A stretch of 32,000 nt of DNA from Microaerobacter geothermalis (GTDB lineage Bacteria > Bacillota > Bacilli > DSM-22679), in contig NZ_JAKIHL010000001.1 of the NCBI RefSeq assembly GCF_021608135.1, positions 321,744 through 353,743 on the forward strand. The letters run 5' to 3'. Each line of letters opens with the position of its first letter. Within the stretch, counting starts at the first letter, position 1. A program made the translations under genes and the position numbers. Positions 3,461 through 31,884 of this stretch are shown here, one piece after another. The notes under the pieces are model-generated. The model did no database searches. It had not been told where the DNA came from and saw only the letters and a program-made list of their open reading frames with translations.

Positions 3461-5110
3461 ATGACCAGAAGAAGAATTGGGGATATATTAGTTGAATCGG
3501 GGATCATTACGGATCAACAGTTGAAGCAGGCTCTTCAGGAACAGAAGGGAAGCGGGATGAAGCTGGGGGATCTTTTAATAGATCGAGGATATATTACTGA
3601 ACAGCAACTCATAGAAGTATTGGAATTTCAACTGGGAATTCCCCACGTCCAACTGCATCGCCAAAAGATAGACGATAAGATCATCAATATGATTCCTGAT
3701 AAAATAGCAAAAAAACATCGGGTACTTCCGCTTCGTCTAGAAAATAATAAATTAATTATTGCCATGTCCGATCCCCTAGACTACTATGCCATTGATGATG
3801 TCCGCATGAGTACGGGCTTTCAAGTGGAACCGGTTATTGCTTCCAAGGAAGAGTTAAATAGGGCTATTAATCGGTATTACAGTTTGCAAGAAACTTTAGA
3901 CGAAGTCATGCAGACGATTCCCAAAGAAATAGAGGAAACAGAAGCGACAAATGATAATGCTCCAATTGTCAGGATGGTGAATCAGATTATTTCCCAAGCG
4001 GTAAATATGGGTGCCAGCGACATTCATTTTGATCCACAGGAAAACAGCGTGAAAATAAGATACCGGATAGACGGAATATTAAGGACGGAAAGGGACTTGC
4101 CTGCCCATATGCTGGGTGTCATAACAGCAAGGCTTAAAATATTATCCAACTTGAACATCGCCGAACGCCGTTTACCCCAGGATGGCCGGTTCGAGATGGA
4201 AGTGGATTATCGAAAAGTAGATATTCGTATTTCTACCCTTCCCACAATACATGGGGAAAAAACAGTACTTCGTATATTGGATATGGCCAATGCGATCACC
4301 AATATAGAGAAGCTGGGACTATCTCAAAACAATTTGGCCTCTTTTAGAAAAATGATTTCTTCGGCTTATGGGATAATCCTGATTACCGGCCCCACCGGAA
4401 GCGGGAAAACCACCACCCTTTATGCAGCCCTTAGCTATTTAAATTCGGAACAGGTAAATATTATAACCGTTGAGGACCCGGTTGAGTACCAACTTCCGGG
4501 AATTAATCAGGTGCAGGTAAATACAACGACGGGACTTACCTTTGCCAGGGGACTTCGTTCTATTCTCCGTCAGGACCCCAATATTGTCATGGTCGGAGAA
4601 ATCCGGGATTTGGAAACGGCGGAAATCTCTGTTCGAGCCGCATTAACGGGCCATTTAGTATTAAGTACGTTGCATACCAACGATGCGGTCAGCACGTTAA
4701 ACCGTTTAATCGATATGGGAATTGAACCCTTTCTTGTCTCTTCATCCATTGCGGGCGTAGTGGCTCAGCGTTTGGTGCGACGTATTTGTCCCCAATGCAG
4801 GGACTCCTACCAACCCTCTTTTGAAGAACAAAATTTGCTGGAACAATATCAATTATCTGCCTCCAAATTGTATCGTGGTCAAGGATGTGGGAGTTGCAGC
4901 CAAACCGGGTACAGGGGCAGATTGGCTATCCATGAGGTGTTATCCTTGGATGAAAAGATGAGAGAGATGGTAATGACAAGGAAGTCAGATTCAGAGTACC
5001 GAAATTATGCCATGTCCATCGGCATGGTTCCAATGATCAAGGATGGTTTGATGAAGGCGGTTGAAGGATTAACCACCATTCAGGAAGTATTAAGGGTAAC
5101 CATTGAATGA
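3461..5110 (+). CDS. pilB: Type IV pilus assembly (extension) ATPase PilB, GspE family, with an N-terminal MshEN-type domain
   Basis: Walker A GPTGSGKTTT, Asp/His boxes, and tetracysteine motif CPQC...CGSC typical of PilB/GspE. N-terminal T2SSE_N-like domain. The track start ATG 3452 abuts the RBS AAGGGAG (3446-3452). In-frame ATG 3461 has about 9-nt spacing and is preferred. Confidence 0.9.
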   Translation: MTRRRIGDILVESGIITDQQLKQALQEQKGSGMKLGDLLIDRGYITEQQLIEVLEFQLGIPHVQLHRQKIDDKIINMIPDKIAKKHRVLPLRLENNKLIIAMSDPLDYYAIDDVRMSTGFQVEPVIASKEELNRAINRYYSLQETLDEVMQTIPKEIEETEATNDNAPIVRMVNQIISQAVNMGASDIHFDPQENSVKIRYRIDGILRTERDLPAHMLGVITARLKILSNLNIAERRLPQDGRFEMEVDYRKVDIRISTLPTIHGEKTVLRILDMANAITNIEKLGLSQNNLASFRKMISSAYGIILITGPTGSGKTTTLYAALSYLNSEQVNIITVEDPVEYQLPGINQVQVNTTTGLTFARGLRSILRQDPNIVMVGEIRDLETAEISVRAALTGHLVLSTLHTNDAVSTLNRLIDMGIEPFLVSSSIAGVVAQRLVRRICPQCRDSYQPSFEEQNLLEQYQLSASKLYRGQGCGSCSQTGYRGRLAIHEVLSLDEKMREMVMTRKSDSEYRNYAMSIGMVPMIKDGLMKAVEGLTTIQEVLRVTIE

Positions 5111-5123
5111 GGAGGAATCGAAA

Positions 5124-6161
5124 TTGGAAATTGAGCAGTTACTCCGTCTTGCCCATGAGCAGGGGGCTTCAGATTTGCACATTACGGTAGGTTCACCGCC
5201 TATTCTGAGAATTCATGGCCAATTAAAACCACTTCCTGGAGAGAAGCTAAAACCAAATGAAACGGCAGAAATAGCTAGACAGTTGATGACACAAGAACAA
5301 GATGAGCGATTCCGGGAAAAGGGTGAAGCAGATTTTTCCTATGGCATCCCTCAAGTTTCCCGTTTTAGAATTAATGTATACCGCCAAAGGGGTTGTGTCA
5401 GTTTAGCCATTCGGACCATCAACTCAAAGGTTCCCAGTATGGAGCAGTTGGGTCTACCTCCAATTGCCCGTGATTTTGCTGAAAAACCTCAGGGATTATT
5501 TTTGGTTACCGGACCAACCGGCAGCGGTAAATCTACGACATTGGCATCGATGATTGACTATATCAATCGTACGATGTATAAACATATCATTACCTTAGAA
5601 GATCCCATTGAATATTTGCATCTTCATCAGCGCTGTATTATAGACCAAAGGGAAGTGGGGCAGGATACGTTATCCTTTGCCAATGGCTTGCGTGCAGCCT
5701 TAAGACAGGACCCTGATGTTATTTTGGTCGGGGAGATGAGGGATCTGGAAACCATCGCCACTGCTATCAGTGCCGCCGAAACGGGACATCTGGTGTTTGC
5801 CACTTTACATACCTCTGATGCTCCTCAAACCATAGACAGAATCATTGATGTCTTTCCTCCGGCCCAGCAACAACAGGTTCGTATTCAATTGGCTGCGGTT
5901 TTACTGGGAGTAATGTCCCAACGGTTGATTCCTACGGCGGACGGAAACGGAAGAATGGCAGCCATTGAAGTACTGGTCAATACTCCAGCTGTAGCCAATC
6001 TGATCCGTTCAGAAAAGGTGCATCAAATAAAATCCATTATGCAGACAGGGATTCAGCAGGGAATGATTACGATGGAGCAATCGCTAAAACAGTTAATTCG
6101 TTCAGGACATATTACGGAATCAATGGCTAGGCAATACTCTGTCAACTTTGGTGATTTTTAA
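5124..6161 (+). CDS. pilT: Twitching-motility (retraction) ATPase PilT
   Basis: About 345 aa, Walker A GPTGSGKSTT, PilT-type motif AVANLIRSEKVHQI (AIRNLIRE-like). No N-terminal GspE extension. The track start TTG 5103 overlaps pilB. In-frame TTG 5124 lies 8 nt after a strong RBS GAGGAGG (5109-5115). It gives an N-terminus (MEIEQLLRLAHEQGASDLH) of the length I recall for PilT proteins. Confidence 0.88.
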   Translation: MEIEQLLRLAHEQGASDLHITVGSPPILRIHGQLKPLPGEKLKPNETAEIARQLMTQEQDERFREKGEADFSYGIPQVSRFRINVYRQRGCVSLAIRTINSKVPSMEQLGLPPIARDFAEKPQGLFLVTGPTGSGKSTTLASMIDYINRTMYKHIITLEDPIEYLHLHQRCIIDQREVGQDTLSFANGLRAALRQDPDVILVGEMRDLETIATAISAAETGHLVFATLHTSDAPQTIDRIIDVFPPAQQQQVRIQLAAVLLGVMSQRLIPTADGNGRMAAIEVLVNTPAVANLIRSEKVHQIKSIMQTGIQQGMITMEQSLKQLIRSGHITESMARQYSVNFGDF

Positions 6162-6191
6162 TTTTCTTCTGACCATATAGGAGGTGAAGGG

Positions 6192-7400
6192 ATGCCTGTC
6201 TTTCAATACAAAGCCACTTCCCGAACGGGACAGAAAAAAAAGGGGATGATTGAAACCAATAATCTTCAAGATGCATACCAACGGTTGAGGGAACAGGGAT
6301 TGTATGTCTCTTCCATTGCTCCTTATAAAGAATCCGTATGGAAAAAAGAGATAGAACTAGGAGGGAACAAGGTAAAATCCCAGCACTTTGTCGTGTTTTG
6401 CCGTCAATTTGCCACCTTGATCCGCGCGGGAATCGGAGTGGTAGATGCCGTAAAGGTGCTAAGCGAACAAACGGAGAGTAAGGTTTTAAAAAAGACCTTG
6501 GAAAGTGTGCTTGCGGAGATTCGTACAGGAACTCAGCTGTCTGCCGCTTGCATGGAACACCCTAAGGTCTTTTCTTCCATTTTTATCAATATGGTCCGGG
6601 CAGGGGAAGCCAGTGGGAACCTGGATGATGTGTTGGAAAAGCTGGCGTCCTTTTTTGAGAAAGAGCATGGGACAAGGGAAAAAATCAAATCGGCTTTAAC
6701 CTATCCCATTACAGTATCGATCATTGCAGTATTGGTTACAGGATTCCTTATGTGGAAGGTGGTTCCCCAGTTTGTGAGTACATTTGAAGGACTGGGGATT
6801 CAGTTGCCGCTGGTAACCCGGATCGTGATGGGAATCAGCAACAGCGTCATTGGATATTGGTATTTGTATCTTGCATTTCCCTTCTTCATCTTCTTTCTCA
6901 TCAAATGGTACGGGAAAACCGATAGCGGTAGGTATCGGTTGGATTACTTAAAATTGAAGATGCCTATTTTTGGAAAATTACTTCAAAAAACAGCAATGGC
7001 CCGTTTTTCAAGAACCTTTAGTTCCTTGTTTGCCGCTGCCGTGCCGATGTTACAAATTCTAAACATTGTTTCCAATGTGGTCGGAAATGAGGTGATCACC
7101 AGAACCATTGAAAAATCGAAAGAACATCTGCGAAGCGGGCAATCCCTAACCGGACCATTGAAAGAGAATTGGGTATTTCCTCCCATGGTGGTGCAAATGA
7201 TGGCAGTAGGGGAACAAACCGGAACATTAGACAGCATCCTGGAAAAAGTGGCGGATTTTTATGAGGCGGAAGTGGATGCGATGGCTGATCGGTTAAAGTC
7301 ACTGCTGGAGCCTTTGCTCATTGTGGTGATGGCCGGGATTGTCGGGATGATTGTATTGGCTATATTGCTTCCCACCTTTACGCTGTATAGCAACTTATAA
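6192..7400 (+). CDS. pilC: Type IV pilus inner-membrane platform protein PilC (GspF family)
   Basis: 402 aa with duplicated GspF-type domain architecture and three hydrophobic segments. RBS AGGAGGTG upstream. Position follows pilB-pilT. Confidence 0.88.
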   Translation: MPVFQYKATSRTGQKKKGMIETNNLQDAYQRLREQGLYVSSIAPYKESVWKKEIELGGNKVKSQHFVVFCRQFATLIRAGIGVVDAVKVLSEQTESKVLKKTLESVLAEIRTGTQLSAACMEHPKVFSSIFINMVRAGEASGNLDDVLEKLASFFEKEHGTREKIKSALTYPITVSIIAVLVTGFLMWKVVPQFVSTFEGLGIQLPLVTRIVMGISNSVIGYWYLYLAFPFFIFFLIKWYGKTDSGRYRLDYLKLKMPIFGKLLQKTAMARFSRTFSSLFAAAVPMLQILNIVSNVVGNEVITRTIEKSKEHLRSGQSLTGPLKENWVFPPMVVQMMAVGEQTGTLDSILEKVADFYEAEVDAMADRLKSLLEPLLIVVMAGIVGMIVLAILLPTFTLYSNL

Positions 7401-7448
7401 GAGGATGTTCAAAAAGATTAATATTATATGAAAATTATTTGAAAGGTG

Positions 7449-7477
7449 TATACAAGTTTCGGTAAAGTCTTTATAAT
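7449..7477 (+). promoter_or_regulatory. Candidate sigma-A promoter for the major pilin gene (TATACA-17 nt-TATAAT)
   Basis: -35-like TATACA 7449-7454, 17-nt spacer, consensus -10 TATAAT 7472-7477, in an AT-rich 148-bp spacer. A 5' UTR hairpin AGTACTAA(9 nt)TTAGTACT at 7506-7530 precedes the SD AAGGGAAGGGGG. Confidence 0.3.
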
Positions 7478-7548
7478 ATAGGTGTCATAACCAAAATAGG
7501 ACAAAAGTACTAATAGAGTGCTTTAGTACTAAGGGAAGGGGGAATTTT

Positions 7549-7962
7549 ATGAATTTTTTACGTAAAAAGGTAAATTTTTTAAGGAATCAGCGTGGGGTAA
7601 CTTTAATTGAATTACTGGCGGTCGTAGTGATTCTAGGCATTATTGCAGCAATTGCAGCTCCAAATATTATTGATAGTTTTGATGATGCAAAAGCGAATAC
7701 GGATGCTACCACAGAAGAGATTATAATAAATGCAGCAAAAAGATTAATAATGGACAATGATGGATTTAACGCTGTTGATGATGATCCTAATTTTGATGAA
7801 GATGCGGATAATAATCCTGCCAACACGCTAGTTATTAGTATGAACACATTGGTTACTAATGGCTATCTTGACGAGGTTCCAGAAAGTCAAGTAGATGGTA
7901 CAGCATATTCCAATATTACAGTTGTAAGAAGTGGTAATCAATATACTTATACTGTAAACTAA
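7549..7962 (+). CDS. pilA: Major type IV pilin (PilA-like prepilin)
   Basis: 137 aa. The leader MNFLRKKVNFLRNQRG|VTLIELLAVVVILGIIAAIAAPN has Gly-1, Glu+5 and a hydrophobic alpha1-N helix. It has its own promoter region and is followed by a terminator hairpin. Small acidic globular part. Triple stop TAATAATAA. Confidence 0.85.
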   Translation: MNFLRKKVNFLRNQRGVTLIELLAVVVILGIIAAIAAPNIIDSFDDAKANTDATTEEIIINAAKRLIMDNDGFNAVDDDPNFDEDADNNPANTLVISMNTLVTNGYLDEVPESQVDGTAYSNITVVRSGNQYTYTVN

Positions 7963-7966
7963 TAAT

Positions 7967-7995
7967 AAGGCAACCTCTTGGTTGCCTTTCTTTTT
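7967..7995 (+). terminator. Intrinsic terminator or attenuator between pilA and pilD
   Basis: AAGGCAACC (7967-7975), loop TCTT, GGTTGCCTT (7980-7988), then TCTTTTT. Perfect 9-bp GC-rich stem plus T-tract immediately after the pilin stop codons. Confidence 0.75.
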
Positions 7996-8007
7996 AAGGA
8001 GCATACT

Positions 8008-8766
8008 ATGGAAATACTGATAATATTATTCATCATCTTCTCCCTGTTTATCGGGTCGTTTCTTAACGTGGTGGCCCTGAGAATTCCAAAAGGGGAATCC
8101 ATTGTTTACCCGCCGTCTCACTGTCCTTCATGTAATCAGCGACTTAAACCTTGGGATTTGTTTCCCGTGTTCAGCTATATCTTTTTAAAGGGAAAATGCC
8201 GGTATTGCCGCAGGCCGATCTCTGTTCTTTATCCCCTTGGCGAAATATGGACGGCGGTTTTGTTTTTTTTCGCATTTGACCGCTTTGGATTTGACAAGGA
8301 ATTATGGATTGCCCTTCCCTTTTTGGCTATTCTTTCGGTTATTACCGTTAGTGATTTAAAATATCAGATCATTTCCAATAAAGTGGTCTATTCCGGGATG
8401 ATTTTATTTCTAATTCTAAGATTCTTTATCCGCCCTTTACCATACATAGACTATATTCTCGGGTTTTTCATTGCCGGGGGGTTGCTCTTTTTGATTGCAG
8501 TGATAACCCGGGGCGGAATGGGCGGAGGAGATATCAAATTGATGGCCATGATCGGATTGGTTATGGGCTGGAAAATGGCTTTGCTATCCTTCTTCATCGC
8601 TTCTTTTATCGGCGGAATGATTGGAGTTATGCTGTTGTTAACCGGAACCGTCAAGCGAAAAGAACCCATTCCCTTCGGCCCTTTTATTGCCATTGGAACA
8701 GCAGTTACCTATTTGTGGGGGGAAGCACTTCTTGATTATTATTTCAATATTTATTCACTATTTTAA
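8008..8766 (+). CDS. pilD: Prepilin peptidase / N-methyltransferase PilD (peptidase A24)
   Basis: Polytopic membrane protein. N-terminal Cys pairs CPSC...CRYC and the catalytic-Asp region GGGDIKLMAMIG typical of A24 prepilin peptidases. The track start TTG 7978 lies inside the pilA terminator stem. ATG 8008 follows RBS AAGGAG (7996-8001) and is preferred. Confidence 0.88.
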   Translation: MEILIILFIIFSLFIGSFLNVVALRIPKGESIVYPPSHCPSCNQRLKPWDLFPVFSYIFLKGKCRYCRRPISVLYPLGEIWTAVLFFFAFDRFGFDKELWIALPFLAILSVITVSDLKYQIISNKVVYSGMILFLILRFFIRPLPYIDYILGFFIAGGLLFLIAVITRGGMGGGDIKLMAMIGLVMGWKMALLSFFIASFIGGMIGVMLLLTGTVKRKEPIPFGPFIAIGTAVTYLWGEALLDYYFNIYSLF

Positions 8767-8829
8767 TATGAATCTTGGCAATCATTCATTTATCATATGT
8801 TACACTTAACTATTAGTAGATATAGAAGC

Positions 8830-8870
8830 GGACTAAAGATTTACACGTTCGCGAGTCGAGTTCTAAGCGA
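8830..8870 (-). repeat. Copy D: collapsed or solo arm of the palindromic repeat family
   Basis: GGACTAAAGATTTACACGTTCGCGAGTCGAGTTC matches the copy A left arm and the reverse complement of the copy C right arm. The following TAAGCGA matches the sequence after GAGTTCGTAC in the copy C left arm, so the element appears to have lost its whole interior. Confidence 0.55.
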
Positions 8871-8903
8871 AATATTGATACTATTTTTAGCAGGGAGAGA
8901 ATT

Positions 8904-9911
8904 ATGGGACTCTTTAATAAATTCCCTTCGTTTTTAGGATTAGAATTTAAGGATGATATGGTTAAAATAATAGAACTGGTTCATCAAAAAAAAGGGTATC
9001 AATTGAGGAAAGCCGTCTATTCTCCTCTTTCCAATGGACTTATTCAAAATGGTCACATTCATGATATGGACGGGTTAAGAAAAATGATCAAGCCGTTAAT
9101 AAAAGGAGAAAAATTTAAATCGAAAAAGGCGGTTCTTGCACTAAAAAGCGAGCAAATTATGCTTAGAACATTAAAACTTCCAAAATTACCTAAGAAGGAA
9201 TTGGAGAAAGTGATTTTACTAGAATTGGAGAATAACATTCAACTTCCTTTTAGTGACCCTGTTTTTGACTATATTTCATTGCCTCATCAGAATTCAGAAG
9301 GAACAGAACAAGAATTATTACTGGTGATTGCTCCGGGGAGTGTGGTAAGGCAATATGTTCAACTCAGCAAATTGCTAGGGTTAAAACCCATTTGCGTAGA
9401 TGTTCACTCACTTGCCATCTTAAGATTAATGAAATGGATAAGAAAGGAACTTCCAACGACATTTATGTCTGTGAATGTAGGCCATCATGGGGTGGATGTC
9501 AGCATATATCACCAAGGAATTTTAAGGTTGACAAGGAATATTTCACTTAGTTCATCGGACTATCTCATCAAATCCCCGGCAATTACCGATGCATTTTCCG
9601 CCATTCACTATCTGGAAAACAGTGATGGCCTGAAGTCTTATGCCCAGGATTTGGGACATGAGATTGAAAGGGTCATGAATTTTTATTTGTTTACCTTGAA
9701 TAATCGTGACCAAAACCTTGATGAGATTGTTCTTTGCGGGGAAGCTCCCAACATTTCGCTGTTAGGTGAGTATTTATCCACAAGATTGCAAGTCCCCGTT
9801 CAAGTGGAGGACTGGACAGGATATATCGAAAACCAGACAGATATGGACATCAAGGATATGTCTGTCTTTTCGGTTCCTATTGGTCTGGGTATGAAGGAAG
9901 TGAGCAGATGA
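8904..9911 (+). CDS. pilM: Type IV pilus assembly protein PilM (actin-like ATPase fold)
   Basis: 335 aa with RBS AGGGAGAG. N-terminal [15 protein letters not shown] resembles the start of PilM/FtsA-like proteins. Translationally coupled (ATGA overlap at 9908-9911) to a PilN-like gene. Confidence 0.75.
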
Positions 9912-10519
9912 TGGAAATAAACCTCCTACCTCGTGAACCTTTTATCATAAGGAATTTTTACCGTTTGCTTTTTCTGGCTTTTGCTTTGCTTTTGCTTATT
10001 TCCGCCATTCTTTTCAAATTTTATGTCTTTCAGCTTGAACAAAAGGATGAATTAACCAGGCAGTTAACCTCAAAAATAGAGCTGAAGCAAAAGATTGAAG
10101 AAATCATTTCAAACAATCAAAAGGTGGAGCAAATGGAAAAGCAGATGGCTGATATCAAACGGTATCAGGAAACCGTACTCTCTTTAGACAATAACAGGAT
10201 AAATTGGGGAATCATATTGGGAGCTGTTAAACAAGCTCTACCAAATGAAAGCCAAATTATTGACATTCAGGTTACAGATCAAGTTCTTGAAGGAAAAGCT
10301 GCCTTCCATTCACTGGATGAAGTAGTCTTATTTAGTGAAACCTTAAAGAAGAATGCTTTGGTAGAGGATATTTATATTCAATTCATTGAAAAACCAGAAG
10401 CAGAGTTATTGGTTGATTCCGAAAGGAAATCATTCCCTATGTTGTTTGTTCAGCCTAAGGGGAGCAAAGTTGTCCAGTTTACGTTATCCATTAGTAAGAA
10501 AAATGCCTCAGGAGAATGA
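9908..10519 (+). CDS. pilN: Type IV pilus assembly protein PilN (fimbrial assembly family)
   Basis: 203 aa. Hallmark N-terminus [10 protein letters not shown] (INLLP motif) followed by a single TM helix and a coiled-coil region. Overlaps both neighbours by 4 nt. Confidence 0.8.
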
Positions 10520-11274
10520 TGATGTTGTCACGTAATCCGCTTTCTTTTAAATCGATTTACACAATTCTTGTTTTTTTCACCATTGGAATCCTATTTATCG
10601 GGATTGCATTTTGGTGGTATGTGATGCCCAATATCAGGGAAAATGACCGATTGGAACAAGAAATTTCCGCAATTGAGGAGTGGGAACAGATCAACGGTGT
10701 GCTCATAAAAAAAGAGGTTCCCGAACCGATTACCAAGGAACAATTGGTCCGGTTAAATGAGATGGTCCCTGTGGAGAGGGAAGTGTCCCGATATTTATAC
10801 GATATTTATCAAATATTTAACCGTTTGAACTTGGATTTTGAACGGATAAAAATTGAAGAGGAATTGCCCTCAAACCCTTCATTATCAAATGACGTAAAAA
10901 TTCAGGCGGGAAATGGTGTGATCAATCAATCGACAAATGGTGTAAAAAACCAGGATGCTATTGGATCAAATAAGCAGACTTCCGATAATAACGAAAATAA
11001 CCTTCCCTATAAAAAAATTATATTTTCCATGACGATCGTAGGTGATTACCAGATCATGCAACAGGTGACGGAAGAATTATGGAAGCTGCCCCGGGTGGTA
11101 AAGTTTAACGAGATTAGATACTCTTTTTCAAAACAACCCAATATGTATGAAATTAATTATGTGTTTGAGATTTATTATTATGTGGAGCCTTTTAATAATG
11201 GATTGGAAACAAAATCTTTAAATATTCGTATTCCAAATCGTAAACCTATAAATGTGGTTCCATCATATTGGTGA
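10516..11274 (+). CDS. pilO: Type IV pilus assembly protein PilO-like
   Basis: 252 aa with a single N-terminal TM helix ([23 protein letters not shown]), a coiled-coil, and a C-terminal core ([36 protein letters not shown]) of the PilO type. Contains an N/Q/S-rich low-complexity insert. Position follows pilMN. Confidence 0.65.
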
Positions 11275-11295
11275 GGGGAAAACCCCTCATTTTTG
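11272..11295 (+). terminator. Intrinsic terminator ending the pil operon
   Basis: TGAGGGG-AAAA-CCCCTCA followed by TTTTT. The stem includes the pilO stop codon TGA 11272-11274. Confidence 0.8.
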
Positions 11296-11362
11296 TTCTA
11301 TCAATCTCTCATCTCTCATATAAAAATAGTAAAGGGAATTGTCCAAAGGAGAGATGATAGAC

Positions 11363-12442
11363 GTGAACAGTCCTCGAAAAAAGGAATTTCACACAAATAT
11401 TGCCAATTGGAATAAGCCCTCTTCTCCATTTTATTCGGGGGATGTGAGAAAAGCGGGGAAATTATGGGGGAGTAGAAATAAATGGAAAACGTTTAAGAAA
11501 AAAAACAAGAAAAATAAGAGGAAGATATCCTGGAAACAGTCAACCGGGGAATTAATGGGTTCTCCCTTTATGCAGTTGGTCTTCTCTATCCTTGGAGCGG
11601 TTGTGGTTGGTTTGGTATTGGGTTTTATGATCCTGTCCATGTTTTCCATTGGCGGAGAAAAGGCGAACTTGTCTTCGAAAGGAAAAATGGGCAATGTTTC
11701 TCCGACGGAAGGCAGTGACGTTTCTAATGCGGTACCTTTAGATGATGTTGTGATTAATCCTGCAGATACCGACGGAGAAAAAAGCAATTTGGCCGACAAT
11801 CCCAAGGGGAATGACATCATCATTCCTGCCAGAACCTATTATGTCATTCAGGGAGGCGTATTTTCGGACCAGAGCGGAGCCCAAATGGTATTGGATACCC
11901 ACCGCGGGAAGGGTTGGGCAGGTATCGTTGTTCCGGGAAAGGACCAAAACACCTATGCGTTTTATATGGGGGTCACCCAAAACAGGGATGATGCCATTGC
12001 TTTGGGTCAGTTTTACAAAGAAAAACAGGTGGAGATTTATGTAAAGGACATAACCTTTCCTGCTCAGATCACCCCTGTTTTCTCTCAGAATTCAGACCAA
12101 AATAGTTTCGCTTCCTTCATGGAAAAAGGAGATACTCTCTTTCAACAGATTTCCTCGATCAGTGCCAATGGGGTTGCCGGCGGCGGAATGACGAGCCAAT
12201 GGGCATCCATCCAGGAAAACCACCGTCTATACCTTGAAGAAGGGAAAAAGATATACAATGTACTATCCGGCGAAAGCCAGTTGATTTTTTCTCAAATGAT
12301 GAATGATGTTACCAAAGGGGTTACCGCCCTTCAAAGATATCAATCCCAGCCTTCTCCATCCTATTTATGGCAAGCACAGGATGGTTTGCTAAATTATATA
12401 CTTCATTATCAGCGATGGTTAAAAACTTTACCAAATCAGTAA
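11363..12442 (+). CDS. Membrane-anchored SPOR-domain-like protein, SpoIIB-like by position
   Basis: Lys-rich N-terminus (KKKNKKNKRK), one TM helix (FMQLVFSILGAVVVGLVLGFMILSMF), then YYVIQGGVFSDQSGAQMVL...AFYMGVTQNRDDAIALGQFYKEK, which resembles a SPOR peptidoglycan-binding repeat. It lies immediately upstream of maf-radC-mreB, where B. subtilis has spoIIB (recalled synteny). Start uncertain: track TTG 11339 and ATG 11354 lack proper RBS spacing. GTG 11363 lies 9 nt after AAGGAGAG. Confidence 0.55.
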   Translation: MNSPRKKEFHTNIANWNKPSSPFYSGDVRKAGKLWGSRNKWKTFKKKNKKNKRKISWKQSTGELMGSPFMQLVFSILGAVVVGLVLGFMILSMFSIGGEKANLSSKGKMGNVSPTEGSDVSNAVPLDDVVINPADTDGEKSNLADNPKGNDIIIPARTYYVIQGGVFSDQSGAQMVLDTHRGKGWAGIVVPGKDQNTYAFYMGVTQNRDDAIALGQFYKEKQVEIYVKDITFPAQITPVFSQNSDQNSFASFMEKGDTLFQQISSISANGVAGGGMTSQWASIQENHRLYLEEGKKIYNVLSGESQLIFSQMMNDVTKGVTALQRYQSQPSPSYLWQAQDGLLNYILHYQRWLKTLPNQ

Positions 12443-23943: not shown

Positions 23944-25206
23944 GTGAAAAAAATCATTGCAAATTGTGCTAACCAGGAAATCAAGGTGGCTCTGATAGAG
24001 GACCAACGGCTGGTTGAGTTGTTTTTGGAAAGGCCTAATGACCGCCGTCTGGTTGGAAACATCTATAAAGGCAAAGTGGCCAATGTTCTTCCTGGAATGC
24101 AAGCCGCTTTTATTGACCTAGGAATTGGGAAAAACGCCTTTCTATATATAGATGATTTACTGCCGCCCCGATTATTGGATCCTGAATCCCGGGAAAAAAA
24201 GGTGAAGGGAAACATTCAGGAATATCTTCGTATGGGTGAAGAACTCCTTGTTCAAGTTTGCAAGGAACCTTTAGGCAATAAGGGTCCGCGGGTAACTACC
24301 CATCTTACCCTTCCCGGAAGATTTCTTGTCTATCTTCCGACAGGGAATTATGTGGCTATTTCCAGAAGAATTGAAAATGAGGAAGAGCGTGAACGGCTGA
24401 AGTCCATCACTGAGCAATACAGAAACAAAGAAGATGGGTTTATTGTTCGAACAGCGGCGGAGGGGGCTTCAGAAAAGGAATTGGCCCAGGACGTTCTTTT
24501 TTTGCGAAGAGTTTGGCAAAACACCTTGGAAGCAAGCAAGCAAGTGGAATCACCTGGATTAATTTATCGCGATTTGGATTTGTTGTCCCGGGTGATTCGG
24601 GATTTAATGGATGATGATGTGGAAGAATTGGTGGTGAATTCTAAGGAGGCATACCATAAACTGGCTTCTTTATTAATAGATGATCCCAACCTTCAAACAA
24701 GGATTCGTTTACATGAGGCAAATGGTGATATCTTTGCTTATTACGGAGTATTGCAGGAGATGGAAAAAGCTTTAAAAAGAAAAGTTTGGTTAAAAAGCGG
24801 CGGATATGTGGTCTTTGATCAAACAGAAGCTCTGATTGCCGTTGATGTTAATACTGGAAAATTTACTGGAAAACATAGTTTGGAAGAGACCGTTTTTCGA
24901 ACAAATATGGAGGCCGCAAGGGAAATCCCCAGACAGCTCCGCTTAAGGGGAATTGGCGGAATCATTATTATTGATTTTATCGACATGGATAAGCCGGAAT
25001 ATAAGGCCGCCGTATTGGATGCCCTTCAAGAAGAGGTTCACAAGGACCGGACCAAATCGCAAATATTAGGCATTACTCAGCTTGGTCTTGTTGAAATGAC
25101 CCGCAAAAAGGTTCGGCAAAGCCTTGAGGATATGCTGATGTCCCCCTGTCCGACATGTGAAGGAAGGGGGAAGATTTCCATTGGAGAAGACCCCAATTCA
25201 CATTGA
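23944..25206 (+). CDS. rng: Rne/Rng-family endoribonuclease (RNase G-like)
   Basis: 420 aa with an N-terminal S1 domain (GNIYKGKVANVLPGMQAAFIDLG..KNAFL), a 5'-sensor/DNase I-like region with AVDVNTGKF and IIIIDFIDM motifs, and a Zn-link-like CPTCEGRG. GTG start after RBS GAGGAAGGG. Confidence 0.88.
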   Translation: MKKIIANCANQEIKVALIEDQRLVELFLERPNDRRLVGNIYKGKVANVLPGMQAAFIDLGIGKNAFLYIDDLLPPRLLDPESREKKVKGNIQEYLRMGEELLVQVCKEPLGNKGPRVTTHLTLPGRFLVYLPTGNYVAISRRIENEEERERLKSITEQYRNKEDGFIVRTAAEGASEKELAQDVLFLRRVWQNTLEASKQVESPGLIYRDLDLLSRVIRDLMDDDVEELVVNSKEAYHKLASLLIDDPNLQTRIRLHEANGDIFAYYGVLQEMEKALKRKVWLKSGGYVVFDQTEALIAVDVNTGKFTGKHSLEETVFRTNMEAAREIPRQLRLRGIGGIIIIDFIDMDKPEYKAAVLDALQEEVHKDRTKSQILGITQLGLVEMTRKKVRQSLEDMLMSPCPTCEGRGKISIGEDPNSH

Positions 25207-25232: not shown

Positions 25233-25338
25233 ATTGTTTGTTGTAAGCATCTGCCTCGCAGTGTGCTGTAACCGCTCAAGAAAGGTTATAAGCAGGATAT
25301 TTTTTCCTCACCCTCATTGGCGAGTCTGAGTATAGGAG
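25233..25338 (+). ncRNA. Structured 5' leader of rplU; candidate ribosomal-protein L21 leader
   Basis: About 105-nt untranslated leader with hairpins GCATCTGC-CTC-GCAGTGTGC and TGTAACC(10 nt)GGTTATA. A CCTC...CTCA segment can pair with the TGAG...GGAGG SD region. An L21 leader RNA is described upstream of rplU in Firmicutes. I cannot align to the covariance model here. Confidence 0.4.
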
Positions 25339-28534: not shown

Positions 28535-28567
28535 AATTGGGCAACATTTCCGGGATGTTGCCCAATT
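28535..28567. terminator. Perfect 13-bp hairpin after obg (probable terminator, weak T-tract)
   Basis: AATTGGGCAACAT (28535-28547), 7-nt loop, ATGTTGCCCAATT (28555-28567), followed by TGTATTATT. Confidence 0.55.
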
Positions 28568-28607
28568 TGTATTATTCATTGAATTTGGTCATTTTAGCCA
28601 CTTTTTG

Positions 28608-28616
28608 TGCTATACT
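28608..28616 (+). promoter_or_regulatory. Extended -10 promoter (TGcTATACT) for the small peptide gene
   Basis: TG 28608-28609, TATACT 28611-28616. No convincing -35. Predicted transcription start near 28623. Confidence 0.4.
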
Positions 28617-28688
28617 TAGGGTTGTACAATAGAATTGGCTCCTCAAGGGTGGTTGGCTCATCCCCGAAGATAGAAAGGGGGTGAGAAC

Positions 28689-28769
28689 ATGACAGTATTT
28701 GAAACAATAACTGTAATGATAGCTTTCGGAATGCTTGTGGCAATACTGTCTCAAAAAAATAGGAAATAG
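28689..28769 (+). CDS. 26-aa hydrophobic peptide, candidate type I toxin (TxpA/BsrG/Hol-Tox-like)
   Basis: ATG 28689 preceded by SD GGGGGTGAG (28677-28685), TAG at 28767-28769. Product MTVFETITVMIAFGMLVAILSQKNRK is one TM helix plus a basic tail. The N-terminal MTVFE..(I/L)..MI.FG pattern resembles B. subtilis type I toxins as I recall them. Below the ORF-track size cut-off. Confidence 0.55.
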   Translation: MTVFETITVMIAFGMLVAILSQKNRK

Positions 28770-28892
28770 ACCGCCCTTGAGTTGACATCTCTGCGGTCTA
28801 TTTCTACCAAATTATGAGCCAACGCCCTTATGGGCATCTATTTATACCGACCGTGGGTGTTTCAGCACCTGCGGTCTTTTTAATATCTTACA
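28753..28892 (-). ncRNA. Predicted ~140-nt cis-antisense RNA (candidate antitoxin) overlapping the 3' end and 3' UTR of the peptide mRNA
   Basis: It starts about 7 nt downstream of the minus-strand -10. It ends at a minus-strand intrinsic terminator: hairpin 28800-28767 (TAGACCGC...GCGGTCTA) followed by TTTCCTATTTTTTT (28766-28753). The convergent 3'-overlap layout matches txpA/RatA and bsrG/SR4. Confidence 0.45.
28849..28881 (+). terminator. Intrinsic terminator of the peptide mRNA
   Basis: GACCGTGGGTG (28849-28859), loop TTTCAG, CACCTGCGGTC (28866-28876) with 9 of 11 pairs, then TTTTT (28877-28881). Confidence 0.65.
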
Positions 28893-28897
28893 CATTT

Positions 28898-28925
28898 ATT
28901 ATATCAAGTATTCGACGTTTTTCAA
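28898..28925 (-). promoter_or_regulatory. Strong minus-strand sigma-A promoter (TTGAAA-16 nt-TGaTATAAT) pointing at the peptide gene
   Basis: On the minus strand: -35 TTGAAA (plus coordinates 28925-28920), 16-nt spacer containing TG at -15/-14, -10 TATAAT (28903-28898). No protein-coding ORF lies downstream on that strand. Confidence 0.55.
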
Positions 28926-28955: not shown

Positions 28956-28984
28956 TTGCCTGATGAACGGATATGGTTTATAAT
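28956..28984 (+). promoter_or_regulatory. Candidate sigma-A promoter of the pheB-hom-thrC-thrB operon
   Basis: TTGCCT (28956-28961), exactly 17-nt spacer, TATAAT (28979-28984), with an upstream A/T tract TTTTAAAAAAAA (UP-like). Confidence 0.55.
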
Positions 28985-29026: not shown

Positions 29027-29473
29027 ATGAAAAAAAAAGAAGATGTTTTTTATCTGATTCGGTCTAATATTCTTCCGGAATCTATTCTAAAAACGGTGGA
29101 AGCGAAAAAGCTGTTGGAATCAGGAAAAGCAGATACGGTTTTTGAAGCAGTGGAGAAAGTGGGATTAAGCCGAAGTGCCTATTACAAGTATAAAGATGGG
29201 ATCTTCCCTTTCAATGCGATGATGAGAGAGAAGATTATAACCATCTCCATGAATTTGGAGCACCGTTCTGGGGTGTTATCCAAAGTGTTAGGCTATATTG
29301 CCCAATCCGGCGGAAATATTTTAACCATTCATCAGACGATTCCGTTACAGGGATCGGCCAATGTCGCCATGTCCATTGATACTGCATCAATGGACTTATC
29401 CACCACTGACTTTTTGGAAGGATTGGAAACGATTGACGGCGTGTCCAAAGCCATTATCGTGGGCAGAGGATAA
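29027..29473 (+). CDS. pheB: ACT-domain protein of the PheB / UPF0735 family
   Basis: 148 aa. The N-terminal helix-turn-helix-like part (EAVEKVGLSRSAYYKYKDGIFPF) plus a C-terminal ACT domain (ITISMNLEHRSGVLSKVLGYIAQSGGNILTIHQ) match B. subtilis PheB, which also follows obg. Confidence 0.8.
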   Translation: MKKKEDVFYLIRSNILPESILKTVEAKKLLESGKADTVFEAVEKVGLSRSAYYKYKDGIFPFNAMMREKIITISMNLEHRSGVLSKVLGYIAQSGGNILTIHQTIPLQGSANVAMSIDTASMDLSTTDFLEGLETIDGVSKAIIVGRG

Positions 29474-29500
29474 AGAAAATCATGCAGAGGGGAGAAGCAC

Positions 29501-30808
29501 ATGGATAATCAGGTTGTTAAAATTGGTTTAATGGGCTTGGGGACCGTGGGTGGTGGTGTTGTCCGTATTTTAGAGGCCCATCAGGAGGATTTATATAAAC
29601 AAACCGGATGCCGCATTGAAATCGTAAAGGTTTTGGTTCAAAACCTTGAAAAACAGCGTTCAGTTACGGTTGACCGTTCCATAATCACGAACAATCCATG
29701 GGAGGTTCTTGATGATCCGGAGATTGATGTGATCGTTGAAGTGATGGGAGGCATTGAGCCTACAAGGGAATATATTTTGGAAGCCCTTGAAAGAGGAAAG
29801 CATGTGGTTACTGCCAATAAAGACTTAATGGCTCTGCAAGGAGGTGAAATCCTCTCCAAGGCGGAACAAATGGGGTGCGATGTTTTCTATGAAGCCAGTG
29901 TTGCCGGCGGCATTCCCATATTAAGAGCGTTAGTTGAAGGTTTTTCTTCCGATCGAATTACAAAAATGATGGGTATCGTGAATGGGACCACCAACTACAT
30001 CTTGACTAAAATGAGCCAGGAGGGTGCCTCCTATGAAGATGTACTGAAGGAAGCTCAGGAATTGGGATATGCTGAATCTGATCCGACTGCCGATGTGGAA
30101 GGACATGATGCCGCAAGGAAAATGGCCATATTAAGCACTTTGGGGTTCCATGTGGCATTAAATTTGGATGAAGTAGACGTGAAAGGGATATCCAAGGTTA
30201 CCAAAGAAGATATTCTCCTCGGAAAAAAACTTGGCTATGAAGTGAAACTGTTGGGTATCGCCCAGCGGGATGACGATAAGATTGAAGTAAGTGTGCAGCC
30301 GACGATGATTCCCAAATCCCATCCATTAGCTTCAGTAAATGGGGTGTTCAATGCGGTTTATGTATACGGGGAAGCCGTAGGTGAGACGATGTTCTACGGT
30401 CCCGGTGCCGGTCAATTACCCACAGCAACCGCAGTGGTATCAGATCTAGTAACGGTGGTGAAAAATATGAAATTAGGAGTAAATGGGAGGGGAACTGTGG
30501 CTCCATACAAAGAGAAAAAACTAAAATCCGATGACCAAGTGGTCTCTAAATATTTTCTTAGGTTTATTGTCGCCGACAAGCGCGGGGTTTTGGCCCAGAT
30601 TACCAGCATCCTGGCGGAGAATGATATTAGCCTGGAGCAGGTGCTTCAACAGCCCTATCAAATCAACGGTGAATCAAAGGCGGAAATTATTCTGGTTACC
30701 CATTTTGCGTCCAAAGCAAATATGAACAAAGTGATTGAAGTTTTTTCACATTTGGATGTGGTAAAAGAGATCAAAAGTTGTTACAGAGTAGAAGGTGGGG
30801 AGGCATAA
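29501..30808 (+). CDS. hom: Homoserine dehydrogenase (with C-terminal ACT domain)
   Basis: N-terminal Rossmann motif [12 protein letters not shown], catalytic-domain motifs [33 protein letters not shown], and a C-terminal ACT domain ([25 protein letters not shown]). Confidence 0.93.
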
Positions 30809-30810
30809 TC

Positions 30811-31884
30811 ATGGCAGGAATCATACAAAGATATCGCTCTTTTCTTCCCGTATCAGATAAAACCCCACCTATTACTTTGCATGAGGGAAATACTCCCCTC
30901 ATCTATGCGGAAAAACTGTCGAACATGCTGGACATTGAATTGTACGTGAAATACGAAGGCCTCAATCCTACGGGTTCCTTTAAGGACAGAGGGATGGTGA
31001 TGGCTGTTGCCAAGGCGATGGAGGAAGGAAGCCATACCATCATGTGCGCATCCACCGGGAATACTTCAGCTGCTGCTGCCGCCTATGCGGCCCGGGCCAA
31101 CCTACGCTGCATTGTGATTATCCCGAATAATAATATTGCCATGGGAAAACTGGCCCAAGCCATGATTTACGGAGCTGAGGTGATTGCCATCGAAGGTAAT
31201 TTTGATGAGGCTCTTCAAATCGTAAGAGAAATTACCAGGGATGAGCCCATTACACTGGTCAATTCCGTCAATCCCTATCGATTGGAAGGGCAAAAAACAG
31301 CAGCCTTTGAAATATGTGATGTGTTGGAAAAGGCTCCTGACATTCTTGCCATTCCAGTTGGAAATGCAGGTAATATTACCGCTTACTGGAAGGGGTTTAA
31401 GGAATATCACCAGGCTGGCAAGGTAACCAATCTGCCACAGATGTTTGGATTTGAGGCAGAGGGAGCCGCCGCCCTGGTGAAGGGAGAAGTGATTCCTTAT
31501 CCGGAAACCATTGCCACTGCCATTCGCATTGGAAATCCCGCCAGTTGGGACGGAGCGATGAATGCCGTAAAGGAATCAAAGGGGAATATTGATATGGTGA
31601 GTGATGAGGAGATCTTGGAAGCTTATCGCTTATTGGCATCCACTGAGGGGATTTTTGCTGAACCAGCCTCTTGCGCATCCATCGCCGGAATTATAAAGTT
31701 GAGAAAAAGCAACCGAATTCCTTCAGGAACACAAATTGCAGCGGTGCTAACCGGAAATGGGTTAAAGGACCCCAAAATTGCCTTGGAAGCCGTAACCGTT
31801 CAACCAGTGGTTGTGGAAAATTCAAGAAAAGCTGTCATGGAGATCATACAAAAAGAAGGTGCAACTCATGGAAGGCAAGGTTAG
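30811..31884 (+). CDS. thrC: Threonine synthase
   Basis: [24 protein letters not shown] and the PLP-lysine motif [14 protein letters not shown] 30811 follows RBS GGGGAGG and the hom stop (30806-30808). The track start 30778 lies inside hom. Confidence 0.93.

What the first reader, a model, noticed from the sequence alone, without database searches (positions are those of the whole stretch)
28600..28925. Unannotated type I toxin-antitoxin-like module between obg and pheB: 26-codon membrane peptide, sequestered SD, 5'/3' UTR complementarity and a convergent antisense unit
The ORF is missing from the ORF track because it is too short. ATG 28689 to TAG 28769 encodes MTVFETITVMIAFGMLVAILSQKNRK, one hydrophobic helix plus a basic tail. 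Its N-terminal pattern M-[ST]-[TV]-[YF]-E-x-[LI]..M-I-x-F-G is one I recall from the B. subtilis type I toxins TxpA/BsrG/BsrE/BsrH and the Pfam Hol-Tox family. Directly visible: (1) An extended -10 promoter TGcTATACT at 28608-28616. (2) The SD GGGGGTGAG (28677-28685) pairs over 9 bp (one G-U) with CTCATCCCC (28657-28665), so the RBS is occluded. (3) The leader segment 28645-28661 (AAGGGTGGTTGGCTCAT) overlaps that anti-SD. It is complementary (16 pairs, one bulge, one G-U) to 28814-28829 (ATGAGCCAACGCCCTT) in the 3' UTR. (4) Leader 28642-28649 (CTCAAGGG) is complementary to loop 28774-28781 (CCCTTGAG) of hairpin 28767-28800. (5) A plus-strand terminator lies at 28849-28881. (6) On the minus strand, a near-consensus promoter TTGAAA-16-TGaTATAAT (28925 to 28898) fires towards the ORF. 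(7) Hairpin 28800-28767 followed by TTTCCTATTTTTTT is a minus-strand terminator. Together these predict a ~140-nt antisense RNA forming about 130 nt of perfect duplex with the last codons and 3' UTR of the peptide mRNA. This convergent 3'-overlap layout is the one established for txpA/RatA, bsrG/SR4 and bsrE/SR5. Inference: antisense binding to the 3' UTR would release the leader segment, so the anti-SD closes on the SD, giving dual control of decay and translation as described for SR4. The intramolecular 5'-3' fold-back would instead open the SD. The chromosomal, non-prophage location in a conserved core-gene spacer is unusual for this toxin family.
Basis: partly seen in the sequence, partly recalled or inferred. 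Interest (0 to 1): 0.8.

Follow-up and report, generated by a model that had tools for sequence, protein, structure and literature searches.

The report
bsrG/SR4-type toxin-antitoxin module, chromosomal copy
The 330-bp stretch between obg and pheB is a well-preserved member of the known bsrG/SR4 family of RNA-controlled toxin-antitoxin modules. These are usually carried by phages and plasmids, but this copy sits among core genes of a thermophile, which makes it a tidy but ordinary example.

Summary

**Family membership**
- The + strand 28625-28873 is a full-length match to Rfam RF01412 (BsrG toxin mRNA): 122.8 bits against a gathering score of 55.
- The 26-aa ORF passes Pfam Hol_Tox: 28 bits against 23.3.

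**Antisense antitoxin**
- A convergent near-consensus antisense promoter and an antisense terminator are present here.
- Both are positionally conserved in phage and plasmid homologues.

**Predicted mechanism**
- In the free mRNA only 4 G-C pairs hold the Shine-Dalgarno sequence (SD).
- When the antisense target is masked, a 9-bp SD helix forms.
- This mirrors the 4-to-8-bp switch shown experimentally for SR4/bsrG.

1. The ORF is already annotated in RefSeq as "putative holin-like toxin" of Microaerobacter geothermalis.
3. 26-27 aa is the normal toxin length in this family.

**Location**
The core-gene position is a lineage-specific insertion. It is absent from 67 related pheB loci; obg was detected next to pheB in 31 of these. 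I found no evidence that the location has special significance.

**Verdict:** new member of a known kind, modest interest. No transcript or toxicity data exist.

The parts
28608..28616 (+). Extended -10 promoter of the toxin mRNA (TGcTATACT); no good -35
   Evidence: Sequence. TGnTAnAnT lies at the same distance upstream of the Rfam 5' end in 11 of 13 family members.
28623..28881 (+). Toxin mRNA, about 259 nt (bsrG-family)
   Evidence: Rfam RF01412 BsrG covers model positions 1-259 at 28625-28873, 122.8 bits. Fold z = -7.1.
28637..28641 (+). First GGCUC copy in the leader; pairs with 3' GAGCC (28816-28820) in fold B (Rfam consensus)
   Evidence: I8; D4.
28642..28649 (+). Leader octamer CUCAAGGG. 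It is invariant in the family and identical to the octamer in the antitoxin terminator loop
   Evidence: Invariant columns in alignment A1. Its pairing with 28774-28781 is forced in fold B. The antitoxin loops are shown.
28655..28661 (+). Second GGCUCAU copy. It pairs with AUGAGCC 28814-28820 (helix P1, fold A) and overlaps the anti-SD
   Evidence: Pair probabilities 0.56-0.95. Across the family 87% of cells are paired and 3 pairs have compensatory changes (helix 3).
28657..28665 (+). Anti-SD CUCAUCCCC
   Evidence: Forms a 9-bp helix with the SD. The core CCCC/GGGG has P = 0.95 and the extension P = 0.11-0.44 in the free mRNA. Five of the nine pairs show compensatory changes in the family (helix 5).
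28677..28685 (+). Shine-Dalgarno GGGGGUGAG
   Evidence: Sequence.
28689..28769 (+). Toxin ORF, 26 aa, MTVFETITVMIAFGMLVAILSQKNRK
   Evidence: Pfam Hol_Tox 28 bits, above the gathering score. RefSeq WP_407942175.1. 69% identical to Brevibacillus phage Emery gp50. The family ORF shows a coding signature.
28691..28750 (+). ORF-internal stem-loop (the equivalent of SL2), closed by GACAGUAUU / AAUACUGUC
   Evidence: I5. Covariation (helix 6).
28763..28804 (.). 12-bp hairpin. On the + strand it is SL3 of the mRNA, with the stop codon in its 5' arm and the loop carrying CCCUUGAG. On the - strand it is the antitoxin terminator, followed by CUAUUUUUUU (28762-28753)
   Evidence: I3. The same hairpin plus a U-tract is present in 13 of 13 family members.
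28814..28848 (+). 3' strand of the long 5'-3' helix P1; target of the antitoxin
   Evidence: MFE fold. It is the analogue of bsrG nt 232-262.
28849..28881 (+). Intrinsic terminator of the toxin mRNA
   Evidence: 12-pair stem plus TTTTT. Conserved in the family (helix 11).
28898..28925 (-). Antitoxin promoter TTGAAA-16-TGaTATAAT
   Evidence: 11/12 plus TG. A site at the equivalent position occurs in 10 of 13 homologues against 0.77 expected. In viral copies it occurs in 42 of 66 against 11 expected.
28754..28891 (-). Predicted antisense antitoxin RNA, about 138 nt. About 128 nt are perfectly complementary to the last 5 codons and the 3' UTR of the toxin mRNA
   Evidence: Inferred from the promoter and terminator. 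Fold z = -4.4. There is no transcript evidence.
28535..28567 (.). obg terminator hairpin; upstream boundary of the inserted module (context)
28956..28984 (+). pheB promoter-like site; downstream boundary of the inserted module (context)
   Evidence: The TATAATGTCC..TATATATAAAC motif is shared with Aneurinibacillus thermoaerophilus, which lacks the module.

Best explanation
This is a complete type I toxin-antitoxin module of the bsrG/SR4 (bsrE/SR5, Hol_Tox) family. It was acquired horizontally and inserted between the obg terminator and the pheB promoter of Microaerobacter geothermalis.

**Toxin mRNA.** An extended -10 promoter makes an mRNA of about 259 nt. Its first ~40 nt pair with the 3' UTR (helix P1). 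The RNA is therefore closed and the SD is held by four G-C pairs.

**Antitoxin RNA.** A strong convergent promoter makes an antisense RNA of about 138 nt. Its terminator loop (CUCAAGGG) contacts the SL3 loop of the mRNA (CCCUUGAG). Pairing then spreads to a duplex of about 128 bp.

**Consequences of pairing.** The duplex has two effects. It marks the mRNA for RNase III-initiated decay. It also strips the 3' strand of P1 from the leader, so the anti-SD closes on the SD over 9 bp and blocks translation.

**Without the antitoxin.** The 26-aa peptide, which has a single hydrophobic helix and a basic tail, would be made and would insert into the membrane.

**Shown here:** sequence features, family membership, conserved antisense signals and the predicted refolding. 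**Inferred from bsrG/SR4:** transcription, RNase III cleavage, toxicity and neutralisation.
For: - RNA family: Rfam BsrG full length, 122.8 bits. Twelve phage and plasmid homologues score 100-185 bits.
- Protein family: Pfam Hol_Tox above its cut-off. BsrG itself scores 34.5 bits on the same model.
- Coding constraint: family ORFs are intact in 76 of 80 viral copies. Codon-position entropy is 0.86/0.42/1.23.
- Antisense promoter: 11/12 plus TG here. Positionally conserved in 10 of 13 homologues against 0.77 expected, and in 42 of 66 viral copies against 11 expected.
- Antisense terminator: hairpin plus U-tract in 13 of 13.
- SD helix: 4 bp free versus 9 bp when the antisense target is masked. 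This parallels the probed 4-to-8-bp change in bsrG.
- Structure support: 72% of cells paired against about 43% when the partners are slid, with 33 pairs showing compensatory changes.
- Insertion: the module is absent from 49 genome and 18 metagenome pheB loci of relatives. Where obg lies directly upstream of pheB, the spacer is about 105-227 bp, against 515 bp here.
Against: - There are no expression, toxicity or RNase data for this locus.
- There are no close relatives of the host. The best PheB identity is 76%, so conservation of this particular copy cannot be tested.
- The peptide is one residue shorter than the family norm and matches only positions 1-18 of the 34-position Pfam model.
- In the BsrE/BsrH-like group only overexpression is reported to be toxic (PMC6562991).
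- The sense promoter lacks a -35 element.
Confidence: 0.85

Rival explanations
1. The module is a silent or decaying relic. It was captured from a phage or plasmid and still looks intact, but it is no longer expressed or the shortened peptide is no longer toxic. It would then do nothing for the cell.
For: - It is a single isolated copy with no flanking mobile genes.
- The peptide is 26 aa against the usual 27.
- The Pfam score of 28 bits is lower than for phage copies at 50-54 bits.
- The sense promoter lacks a -35 element.
Against: - All functional elements are intact: SD, ATG, ORF, both terminators and both promoters.
- The antisense promoter is the best in the family.
- Intact 25-26-aa variants occur in viral copies.
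- The fold z-score is -7.1.
Confidence: 0.1
2. The peptide is not primarily a toxin. It would be a small membrane regulator, like the related plasmid peptide ComI (competence inhibitor), or a holin-like factor. The antisense RNA would simply tune its level.
For: - The best NCBIfam hit is ComI at 21.4 bits, and other family peptides including BsrG hit ComI too.
- BsrG does not form pores but perturbs the envelope (PMC6562991).
Against: - The ComI score is far below its cut-off of 55.
- There is no lysis cassette or competence gene nearby.
- The RNA architecture is that of the toxin-antitoxin loci.
Confidence: 0.04
3. The structured RNA is a cis-regulatory leader or 3' UTR element of obg or pheB-hom-thrC, and the small ORF is incidental.
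For: It lies in the obg-pheB spacer. pheB (a ThrR-like ACT protein) and the hom-thrC genes are plausible targets for regulation.
Against: - The obg terminator (28535-28567) precedes the module and the pheB promoter (28956-28984) follows it.
- Relatives lack the element yet keep the pheB promoter motif.
- The same element occurs in phages and plasmids with unrelated neighbours.
- The ORF is under coding selection.
Confidence: 0.01

Closest known systems
bsrG/SR4 of Bacillus subtilis prophage SPbeta (Rfam RF01412; Jahn & Brantl 2013, PMC3834814)
   Same: - Full-length match to the same covariance model.
- The mRNA is closed by a 5'-3' helix P1, with the SD in SL1, the start codon at the base of SL2 and the stop codon in the 5' arm of SL3.
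- A convergent antisense RNA overlaps the 3' end, and its terminator loop is complementary to the SL3 loop.
- The SD helix is predicted to grow from 4 to 9 bp on antisense binding (4 to 8 bp measured for bsrG).
   Different: - Toxin 26 aa against 38 aa, 42% identical over the aligned N-terminus.
- Predicted antitoxin about 138 nt against 180-183 nt. It lacks the non-complementary 5' stem-loop because the promoter lies only about 17 nt beyond the sense 3' end.
- Core-chromosome location rather than a prophage.
- The host is reported as thermophilic (my recollection).
bsrE/SR5 (P6 element) and bsrH/as-bsrH (skin element) of B. subtilis, and the BsrE-like copy on plasmid pBS72
   Same: - Short toxins (29-30 aa; 27 aa on pBS72).
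- mRNA and antitoxin structures similar to bsrG/SR4 (PMC6562991).
- The pBS72 copy scores 139.6 bits on Rfam BsrG.
   Different: - SR5 does not alter the SD helix. The pBS72-type copies are likewise predicted to have a fully closed SD helix already in the free mRNA (12 to 12). The window copy is predicted to switch (4 to 9).
- Peptide identity to the pBS72 copy is only 31%.
Uncharacterised 'putative holin-like toxin' loci of Brevibacillus phages (Jimmer, Emery, Osiris, Abouo, Jenst), a Brevibacillus borstelensis plasmid and IMG/VR prophages
   Same: - They are the nearest relatives found in the phage, plasmid and viral-contig collections: 69-73% DNA identity over about 280 nt and up to 69% peptide identity.
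- Same promoters, terminators and leader motifs.
   Different: - They sit in mobile elements, often next to repressor or antirepressor genes.
- Their peptides are mostly 27 aa.
Pfam PF16935 Hol_Tox
   Same: The peptide scores above the gathering threshold.
   Different: Only model positions 1-18 of 34 are matched. The family name implies a holin-like role, and no evidence bears on that here.
hok/Sok fold-back inhibition
   Same: 5'-3' end pairing of the toxin mRNA keeps it poorly translated.
   Different: The families are unrelated. Sok binds at the 5' translation region, and activation there needs 3' processing.

Membership tests
Rfam RF01412 BsrG (toxin mRNA) | Covariance-model score at or above the gathering score (55 bits) over the whole model | tested here: met
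   122.8 bits, model positions 1-259 of 259, E 2.6e-30. Confirmed in the whole-window scan.
Pfam PF16935 Hol_Tox (toxin peptide) | HMM score at or above the gathering score (23.3 bits) | tested here: met
   28.0 bits, E 2e-6, residues 1-18. BsrG scores 34.5 bits on the same model.
Type I toxin-antitoxin system | Small hydrophobic membrane-type peptide ORF with its own SD and start codon | tested here: met
   26-aa ORF with a hydrophobic core and a KNRK tail. The SD GGGGGUGAG ends 3 nt before the ATG. The family ORF shows a coding signature.
Type I toxin-antitoxin system | Cis-encoded antisense RNA gene overlapping the toxin mRNA | tested here: met
   Promoter 11/12 plus TG and a terminator hairpin with U-tract. 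Both are positionally conserved in homologues. This is a prediction only.
Type I toxin-antitoxin system | Both RNAs are actually transcribed | not testable with these tools
   No transcriptome data are available.
Type I toxin-antitoxin system | The peptide is toxic when expressed and is neutralised by the antisense RNA | not testable with these tools
   Needs experiment.
bsrG/SR4 dual-action mechanism | Antitoxin binding at the 3' end releases the leader and extends the SD-sequestering helix | tested here: met
   In silico only. SD pairs go from 4 to 9 when 28752-28881 is masked. Five of the nine SD-helix pairs covary.
NCBIfam named small-peptide equivalogs (ComI, PepG1) | Score above the curated cut-off | tested here: not met
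   ComI 21.4 bits against a cut-off of 55; PepG1 10.9 bits against 70. BsrG itself also hits only ComI, below the cut-off. This test therefore does not discriminate.
Characterised B. subtilis members (typical, not defining) | Location on a prophage, prophage-like element or plasmid | tested here: not met
   The 32-kb window holds only core genes: pil, mreBC, PBP2, minCD, rodA, spoIVFA/FB, rplU leader, prp, rpmA, spo0B, obg, pheB, hom, thrC. No flanking repeats suggestive of a target-site duplication were found.

The most novel reading that the evidence does not exclude
The module may be a domesticated, bistable RNA switch rather than a passive hitch-hiker. The leader carries two GGCUC copies. 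In the two family members where the 3' GAGCC differs (BsrG, Osiris), both leader copies carry the matching change. The leader also carries an octamer (CUCAAGGG) identical to the antitoxin's recognition loop.

The mRNA can therefore toggle between a translatable fold (4-bp SD helix) and a self-silenced fold (9-bp SD helix) in which the leader occupies the antitoxin's docking loop. The two folds lie 3.5 kcal/mol apart at 37 C, and the MFE switches to the silenced fold at 65 C.

M. geothermalis is, as I recall, a thermophile. In such a host this could make toxin output temperature-dependent. The chromosomal antitoxin could also cross-neutralise, or be titrated by, incoming phages that carry the same family. 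In that case it would act as an exclusion or abortive-infection device.
Probability: 0.12. Interest if true: 0.5.

Novelty: new member of a known kind. Interest (0 to 1): 0.3.

Why it matters
- It extends the experimentally defined bsrG/SR4 design to a distant host outside any recognisable mobile element. The host is reported as thermophilic (my recollection).
- It supplies a compact natural example in which the 4-to-9-bp SD switch is predicted to be especially clear-cut.
- It shows that annotation pipelines label the toxin ORF but not the antitoxin RNA. The antitoxin can be predicted from family-wide conserved promoter and terminator positions.
- It does not change what is known about type I toxin-antitoxin systems.

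Tried and rejected
**Attempts that failed or were blocked**
- The exact Obg and PheB proteins were looked up for their contigs and nothing was on record. The RefSeq gene table of the locus could therefore not be viewed.
- The peptide is too short for the search for homologous proteins, for the look-up of encoding contigs and for structure prediction.
- A covariance model of my own was not built. A ~260-nt model would exceed the calibration limit.

**Searches that gave a negative or weak result**
- I looked for close relatives of the host to test conservation of this copy. The best PheB identity is 73-76% in genomes, metagenomes and the protein collection. None of the 67 related loci holds the element.
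- I looked for target-site duplications or flanking repeats around the module and found none that were convincing.
- tblastn of the peptide against plasmids found only 3 weak lactic-acid-bacteria hits. DNA-level and covariance-model searches were far more informative.
- No Rfam family matched the antisense strand.

**Analyses with limits**
- RNAalifold on the MAFFT alignment recovered only three helices because the 3' UTR aligns poorly. I used window-derived structures with slide and shuffle controls instead.

**Reading rejected**
- That the module is a cis-regulatory element of obg or pheB.
Full report
**Observation**

- The ORF from ATG 28689 to TAG 28769 encodes MTVFETITVMIAFGMLVAILSQKNRK.
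- TGcTATACT lies at 28608-28616.
- The SD GGGGGTGAG (28677-28685) is complementary over 9 bp, with one G-U, to CTCATCCCC (28657-28665).
- Leader 28645-28661 pairs with 28814-28829 over 16 pairs, with one bulged G and one G-U.
- CTCAAGGG (28642-28649) is the perfect complement of CCCTTGAG (28774-28781). The latter sits in the loop of a perfect 12-bp hairpin, 28763-28774 / 28793-28804.
- The pattern scan finds the + terminator at 28849-28876 followed by TTTTT. It also finds a minus-strand promoter TTGAAA-16-TATAAT with an upstream TG at 28925..28898, matching 11 of 12 positions.
- On the minus strand the 28804-28763 hairpin is followed by CUAUUUUUUU.
- The sense RNA folds at -96.4 kcal/mol against -65.5 +/- 4.4 for dinucleotide shuffles (z = -7.1). 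The antisense RNA has z = -4.4.

**What it is**
- Window 28625-28873 (+) matches Rfam RF01412 (BsrG) from model position 1 to 259, at 122.8 bits against a gathering score of 55 (E 2.6e-30). In the whole 32-kb window the only other Rfam hit is the L21 leader.
- The peptide passes Pfam PF16935 Hol_Tox at 28.0 bits against 23.3. Authentic BsrG scores 34.5 bits on the same model.
- NCBIfam gives only sub-threshold hits, with ComI at 21.4 bits against a cut-off of 55. BsrG itself behaves the same way, so that library does not discriminate.
- The exact peptide is already in RefSeq as WP_407942175.1, "putative holin-like toxin [Microaerobacter geothermalis]". Obg and PheB are 100% identical to proteins of that species. 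The ORF is therefore not unannotated in public data.

**Relatives**
- DNA searches found homologues at 69-73% identity in Brevibacillus phages (Jimmer, Emery, Osiris, Abouo, Jenst) and in SPbeta-like phages, where the region is annotated BsrG.
- They also found homologues in plasmids of Brevibacillus, Bacillus, Terribacillus, Shouchella and Parageobacillus.
- All twelve that I fetched are full-length Rfam BsrG matches at 100-185 bits.
- Eleven encode a 27-aa peptide. BsrG, at 38 aa, is the long exception.
- The window peptide is 69% identical to phage Emery gp50 and 42% identical to BsrG.
- A motif scan of IMG/VR found 81 viral contigs. Of 80 copies, 60 encode 27-aa peptides, and intact 25-26-aa variants exist, for example MTVYEALTLMVAFGALVAMLSQDKKK.
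- Across 45 distinct 27-codon ORFs the entropy by codon position is 0.86/0.42/1.23, and 41% of differing codons are synonymous. The ORF is therefore under protein-coding selection. A length of 26 aa is within the family range.

**The antisense gene**
- In 10 of 13 family members a minus-strand promoter-like site has its -10 ending 25-35 nt beyond the sense 3' end. Shuffled flanks give 0.77 expected.
- In 66 distinct viral copies, 42 have such a site 110-160 nt past the stop codon against 11 expected, with a sharp mode at 120-129 nt.
- All 13 members have a strong hairpin followed by a U-rich tract on the minus strand just after the stop codon. Its loop carries CUCAAGGG.
- The window's antisense promoter is the best of the set.
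- The complement of the sense terminator is not followed by a U-run on the minus strand. The antisense transcript should therefore read through to 28754.
- The predicted RNA is about 138 nt, with about 128 nt of perfect complementarity to the last five codons and the 3' UTR.
- A by-product of this layout is that the toxin's C-terminal Lys codons are the template for the antitoxin's terminator U-tract.

**Mechanism**

For bsrG/SR4, Jahn and Brantl showed the following by structure probing (PMC3834814).
- Nucleotides 1-35 pair with 232-262 in helix P1.
- The SD sits in a 4-bp helix in SL1.
- The stop codon is in the 5' part of SL3.
- The SR4 terminator loop first contacts loop 3 of the mRNA.
- In the complex, nt 1-33 become single-stranded and the SD helix grows to 8 bp, which inhibits translation. 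RNase III-initiated decay occurs in addition.

The window RNA reproduces each element in silico.
- In the free mRNA the CCCC/GGGG core is paired at P = 0.95.
- The five outer SD pairs are at 0.11-0.44, because GGCUCAU (28655-28661) is held by AUGAGCC (28814-28820) in P1.
- When the antisense target (28752-28881) is made unavailable, the full 9-bp SD helix forms.
- Among family members the same switch is predicted for BsrG (7 to 10), Emery, Jenst, Osiris and pTAB7A.
- It is not predicted for the pBS72/BsrE-like or Jimmer copies. This fits the report that SR5 does not alter the bsrE SD helix (PMC6562991).

Pairing (3) and pairings (2)+(4) are mutually exclusive.
- Fold A is the MFE at -96.4 kcal/mol. 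It uses pairing (3) and leaves a 4-bp SD helix. It corresponds to the probed bsrG structure.
- Fold B is at -92.9 kcal/mol. The first GGCUC (28637-28641) pairs with GAGCC, and leader CUCAAGGGUGGUU pairs with GACCGCCCUUGAG (13 bp). The full 9-bp SD helix forms. It corresponds to the Rfam consensus.
- Across the family the two folds differ by 0-8.5 kcal/mol.
- On the 13-sequence alignment both folds have about 72% of cells paired, against 40-49% when partners are slid.
- P1 of fold A is 87% paired, with 3 pairs showing compensatory changes. The 9-bp SD helix is 83% paired, with 5 such pairs.
- The leader/SL3-loop helix is 81% paired but almost invariant, so covariation neither supports nor refutes it.
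- At 65 C the predicted MFE switches to fold B, although fold A pairs still dominate the ensemble. This is suggestive only.

**Genomic context**
- The window carries, in order, a type IV pilus cluster, mreB, mreC, PBP2, minC, minD, rodA, spoIVFA-like and spoIVFB-like genes, and an RNase E/G-family gene.
- These are followed by the L21 leader, prp, rpmA, spo0B, obg, the module, pheB (a UPF0735/ThrR-like ACT protein), hom and thrC.
- No phage, plasmid or transposon genes were found.
- None of the 49 genome loci or 18 metagenome loci retrieved through PheB (52-76% identity) contains the element.
- Obg was detectable upstream of pheB in 31 of these 67 loci.
- In loci where obg lies directly upstream of pheB (Aneurinibacillus, Ammoniphilus and others), the obg-pheB spacer is about 105-227 bp against 515 bp here.
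- The pheB promoter motif is shared with Aneurinibacillus thermoaerophilus.
- The module is therefore a clean, lineage-specific insertion between the obg terminator and the pheB promoter, without recognisable repeats at its edges.
- Characterised B. subtilis members all sit on prophage-like elements (PMC6562991, Table 1). Every homologue I retrieved from the phage, plasmid and viral-contig collections is mobile.
- The core location is therefore atypical among the characterised members and the homologues retrieved here. I could not survey chromosomal hits genome-wide, and the host is the only species listed in its genus.

**Verdict**

The system belongs to a known, experimentally understood family, and pipelines already label its toxin. 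What is new is one more member, in an unusual host and position, with an unannotated but well-supported antitoxin gene.

I rate it as a new member of a known kind, with interest about 0.3. The most novel reading still open is that the duplicated leader and the antitoxin-mimicking octamer make a functional bistable or temperature-sensitive switch, or that the chromosomal copy interferes with phages of the same family. It rests on conserved sequence and thermodynamic prediction only.

Noticed in passing
window 25260-25337 (+): Ribosomal protein L21 leader (Rfam RF00559, 55.2 bits) upstream of the rplU-prp-rpmA genes.
   Followed up: no
window 23944-25206 (+): An RNase E/G-family protein (Pfam RNase_E_G, 349 bits) is encoded between the spoIVFB-like M50 protease gene and the L21 leader.
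   Followed up: no
window 3452-12442 (+): A type IV pilus gene cluster (two T2SSE ATPases, T2SSF, prepilin peptidase A24, PilM) lies upstream of mreB. The 609-aa ORF at 1580-3409 and the 367-aa ORF at 11339-12442 have no Pfam hit at 1e-8.
   Followed up: no
window 29027-31884 (+): The 'pheB' product is a UPF0735 ACT-domain protein. NCBI names one homologue 'transcriptional regulator ThrR' (P0048). Here it lies directly upstream of hom and thrC, which fits a threonine-pathway regulator.
   Followed up: partly
L013 1343-2014 (Brevibacillus borstelensis) and other Brevibacillus loci: Brevibacillus species have 1.1-2.3 kb between obg and pheB. In L013 this includes a 223-aa ORF of unknown function. 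The spacer is therefore variable across the order and is not a fixed short gap.
   Followed up: partly
window 28642-28649 and 28774-28781; all 13 family members: The invariant leader octamer CUCAAGGG is identical to the octamer in the predicted antitoxin terminator loop. Both complement the SL3 loop CCCUUGAG. The leader could therefore compete in cis for the antitoxin's docking site.
   Followed up: partly
window 28635-28644 and 28653-28662: There is a tandem leader repeat TTGGCTCCTC / TTGGCTCATC. In BsrG (TGCTC / GAGCA) and Osiris (GACTC / GAGTC) both copies change together with the single 3' partner.
   Followed up: partly
window 28753-28769: The toxin's C-terminal basic codons (AAA AAA AAT AGG AAA) form the A-run that templates the antitoxin terminator's U-tract. 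This is a dual constraint seen across the family.
   Followed up: partly
window 28791-28803 and 28869-28881: The 3' arm of SL3 (CTGCGGTCTATTT) and the 3' arm of the sense terminator (CTGCGGTCTTTTT) are near-identical. The SL3 5' arm could therefore alternatively pair with the terminator 3' arm (I2; D1).
   Followed up: no
L084 and L100 (IMGVR_UViG_2706796474_000001); Jimmer-type phage records: Some phage genomes carry two copies of the module. Phage records for Jimmer1, Jimmer2, Powder and Osiris show two matching places each.
   Followed up: no
window 28535-28567: The obg terminator is a perfect palindromic hairpin called on both strands, but with a weak T-run. Some read-through from obg into the toxin gene is therefore conceivable.
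   Followed up: no
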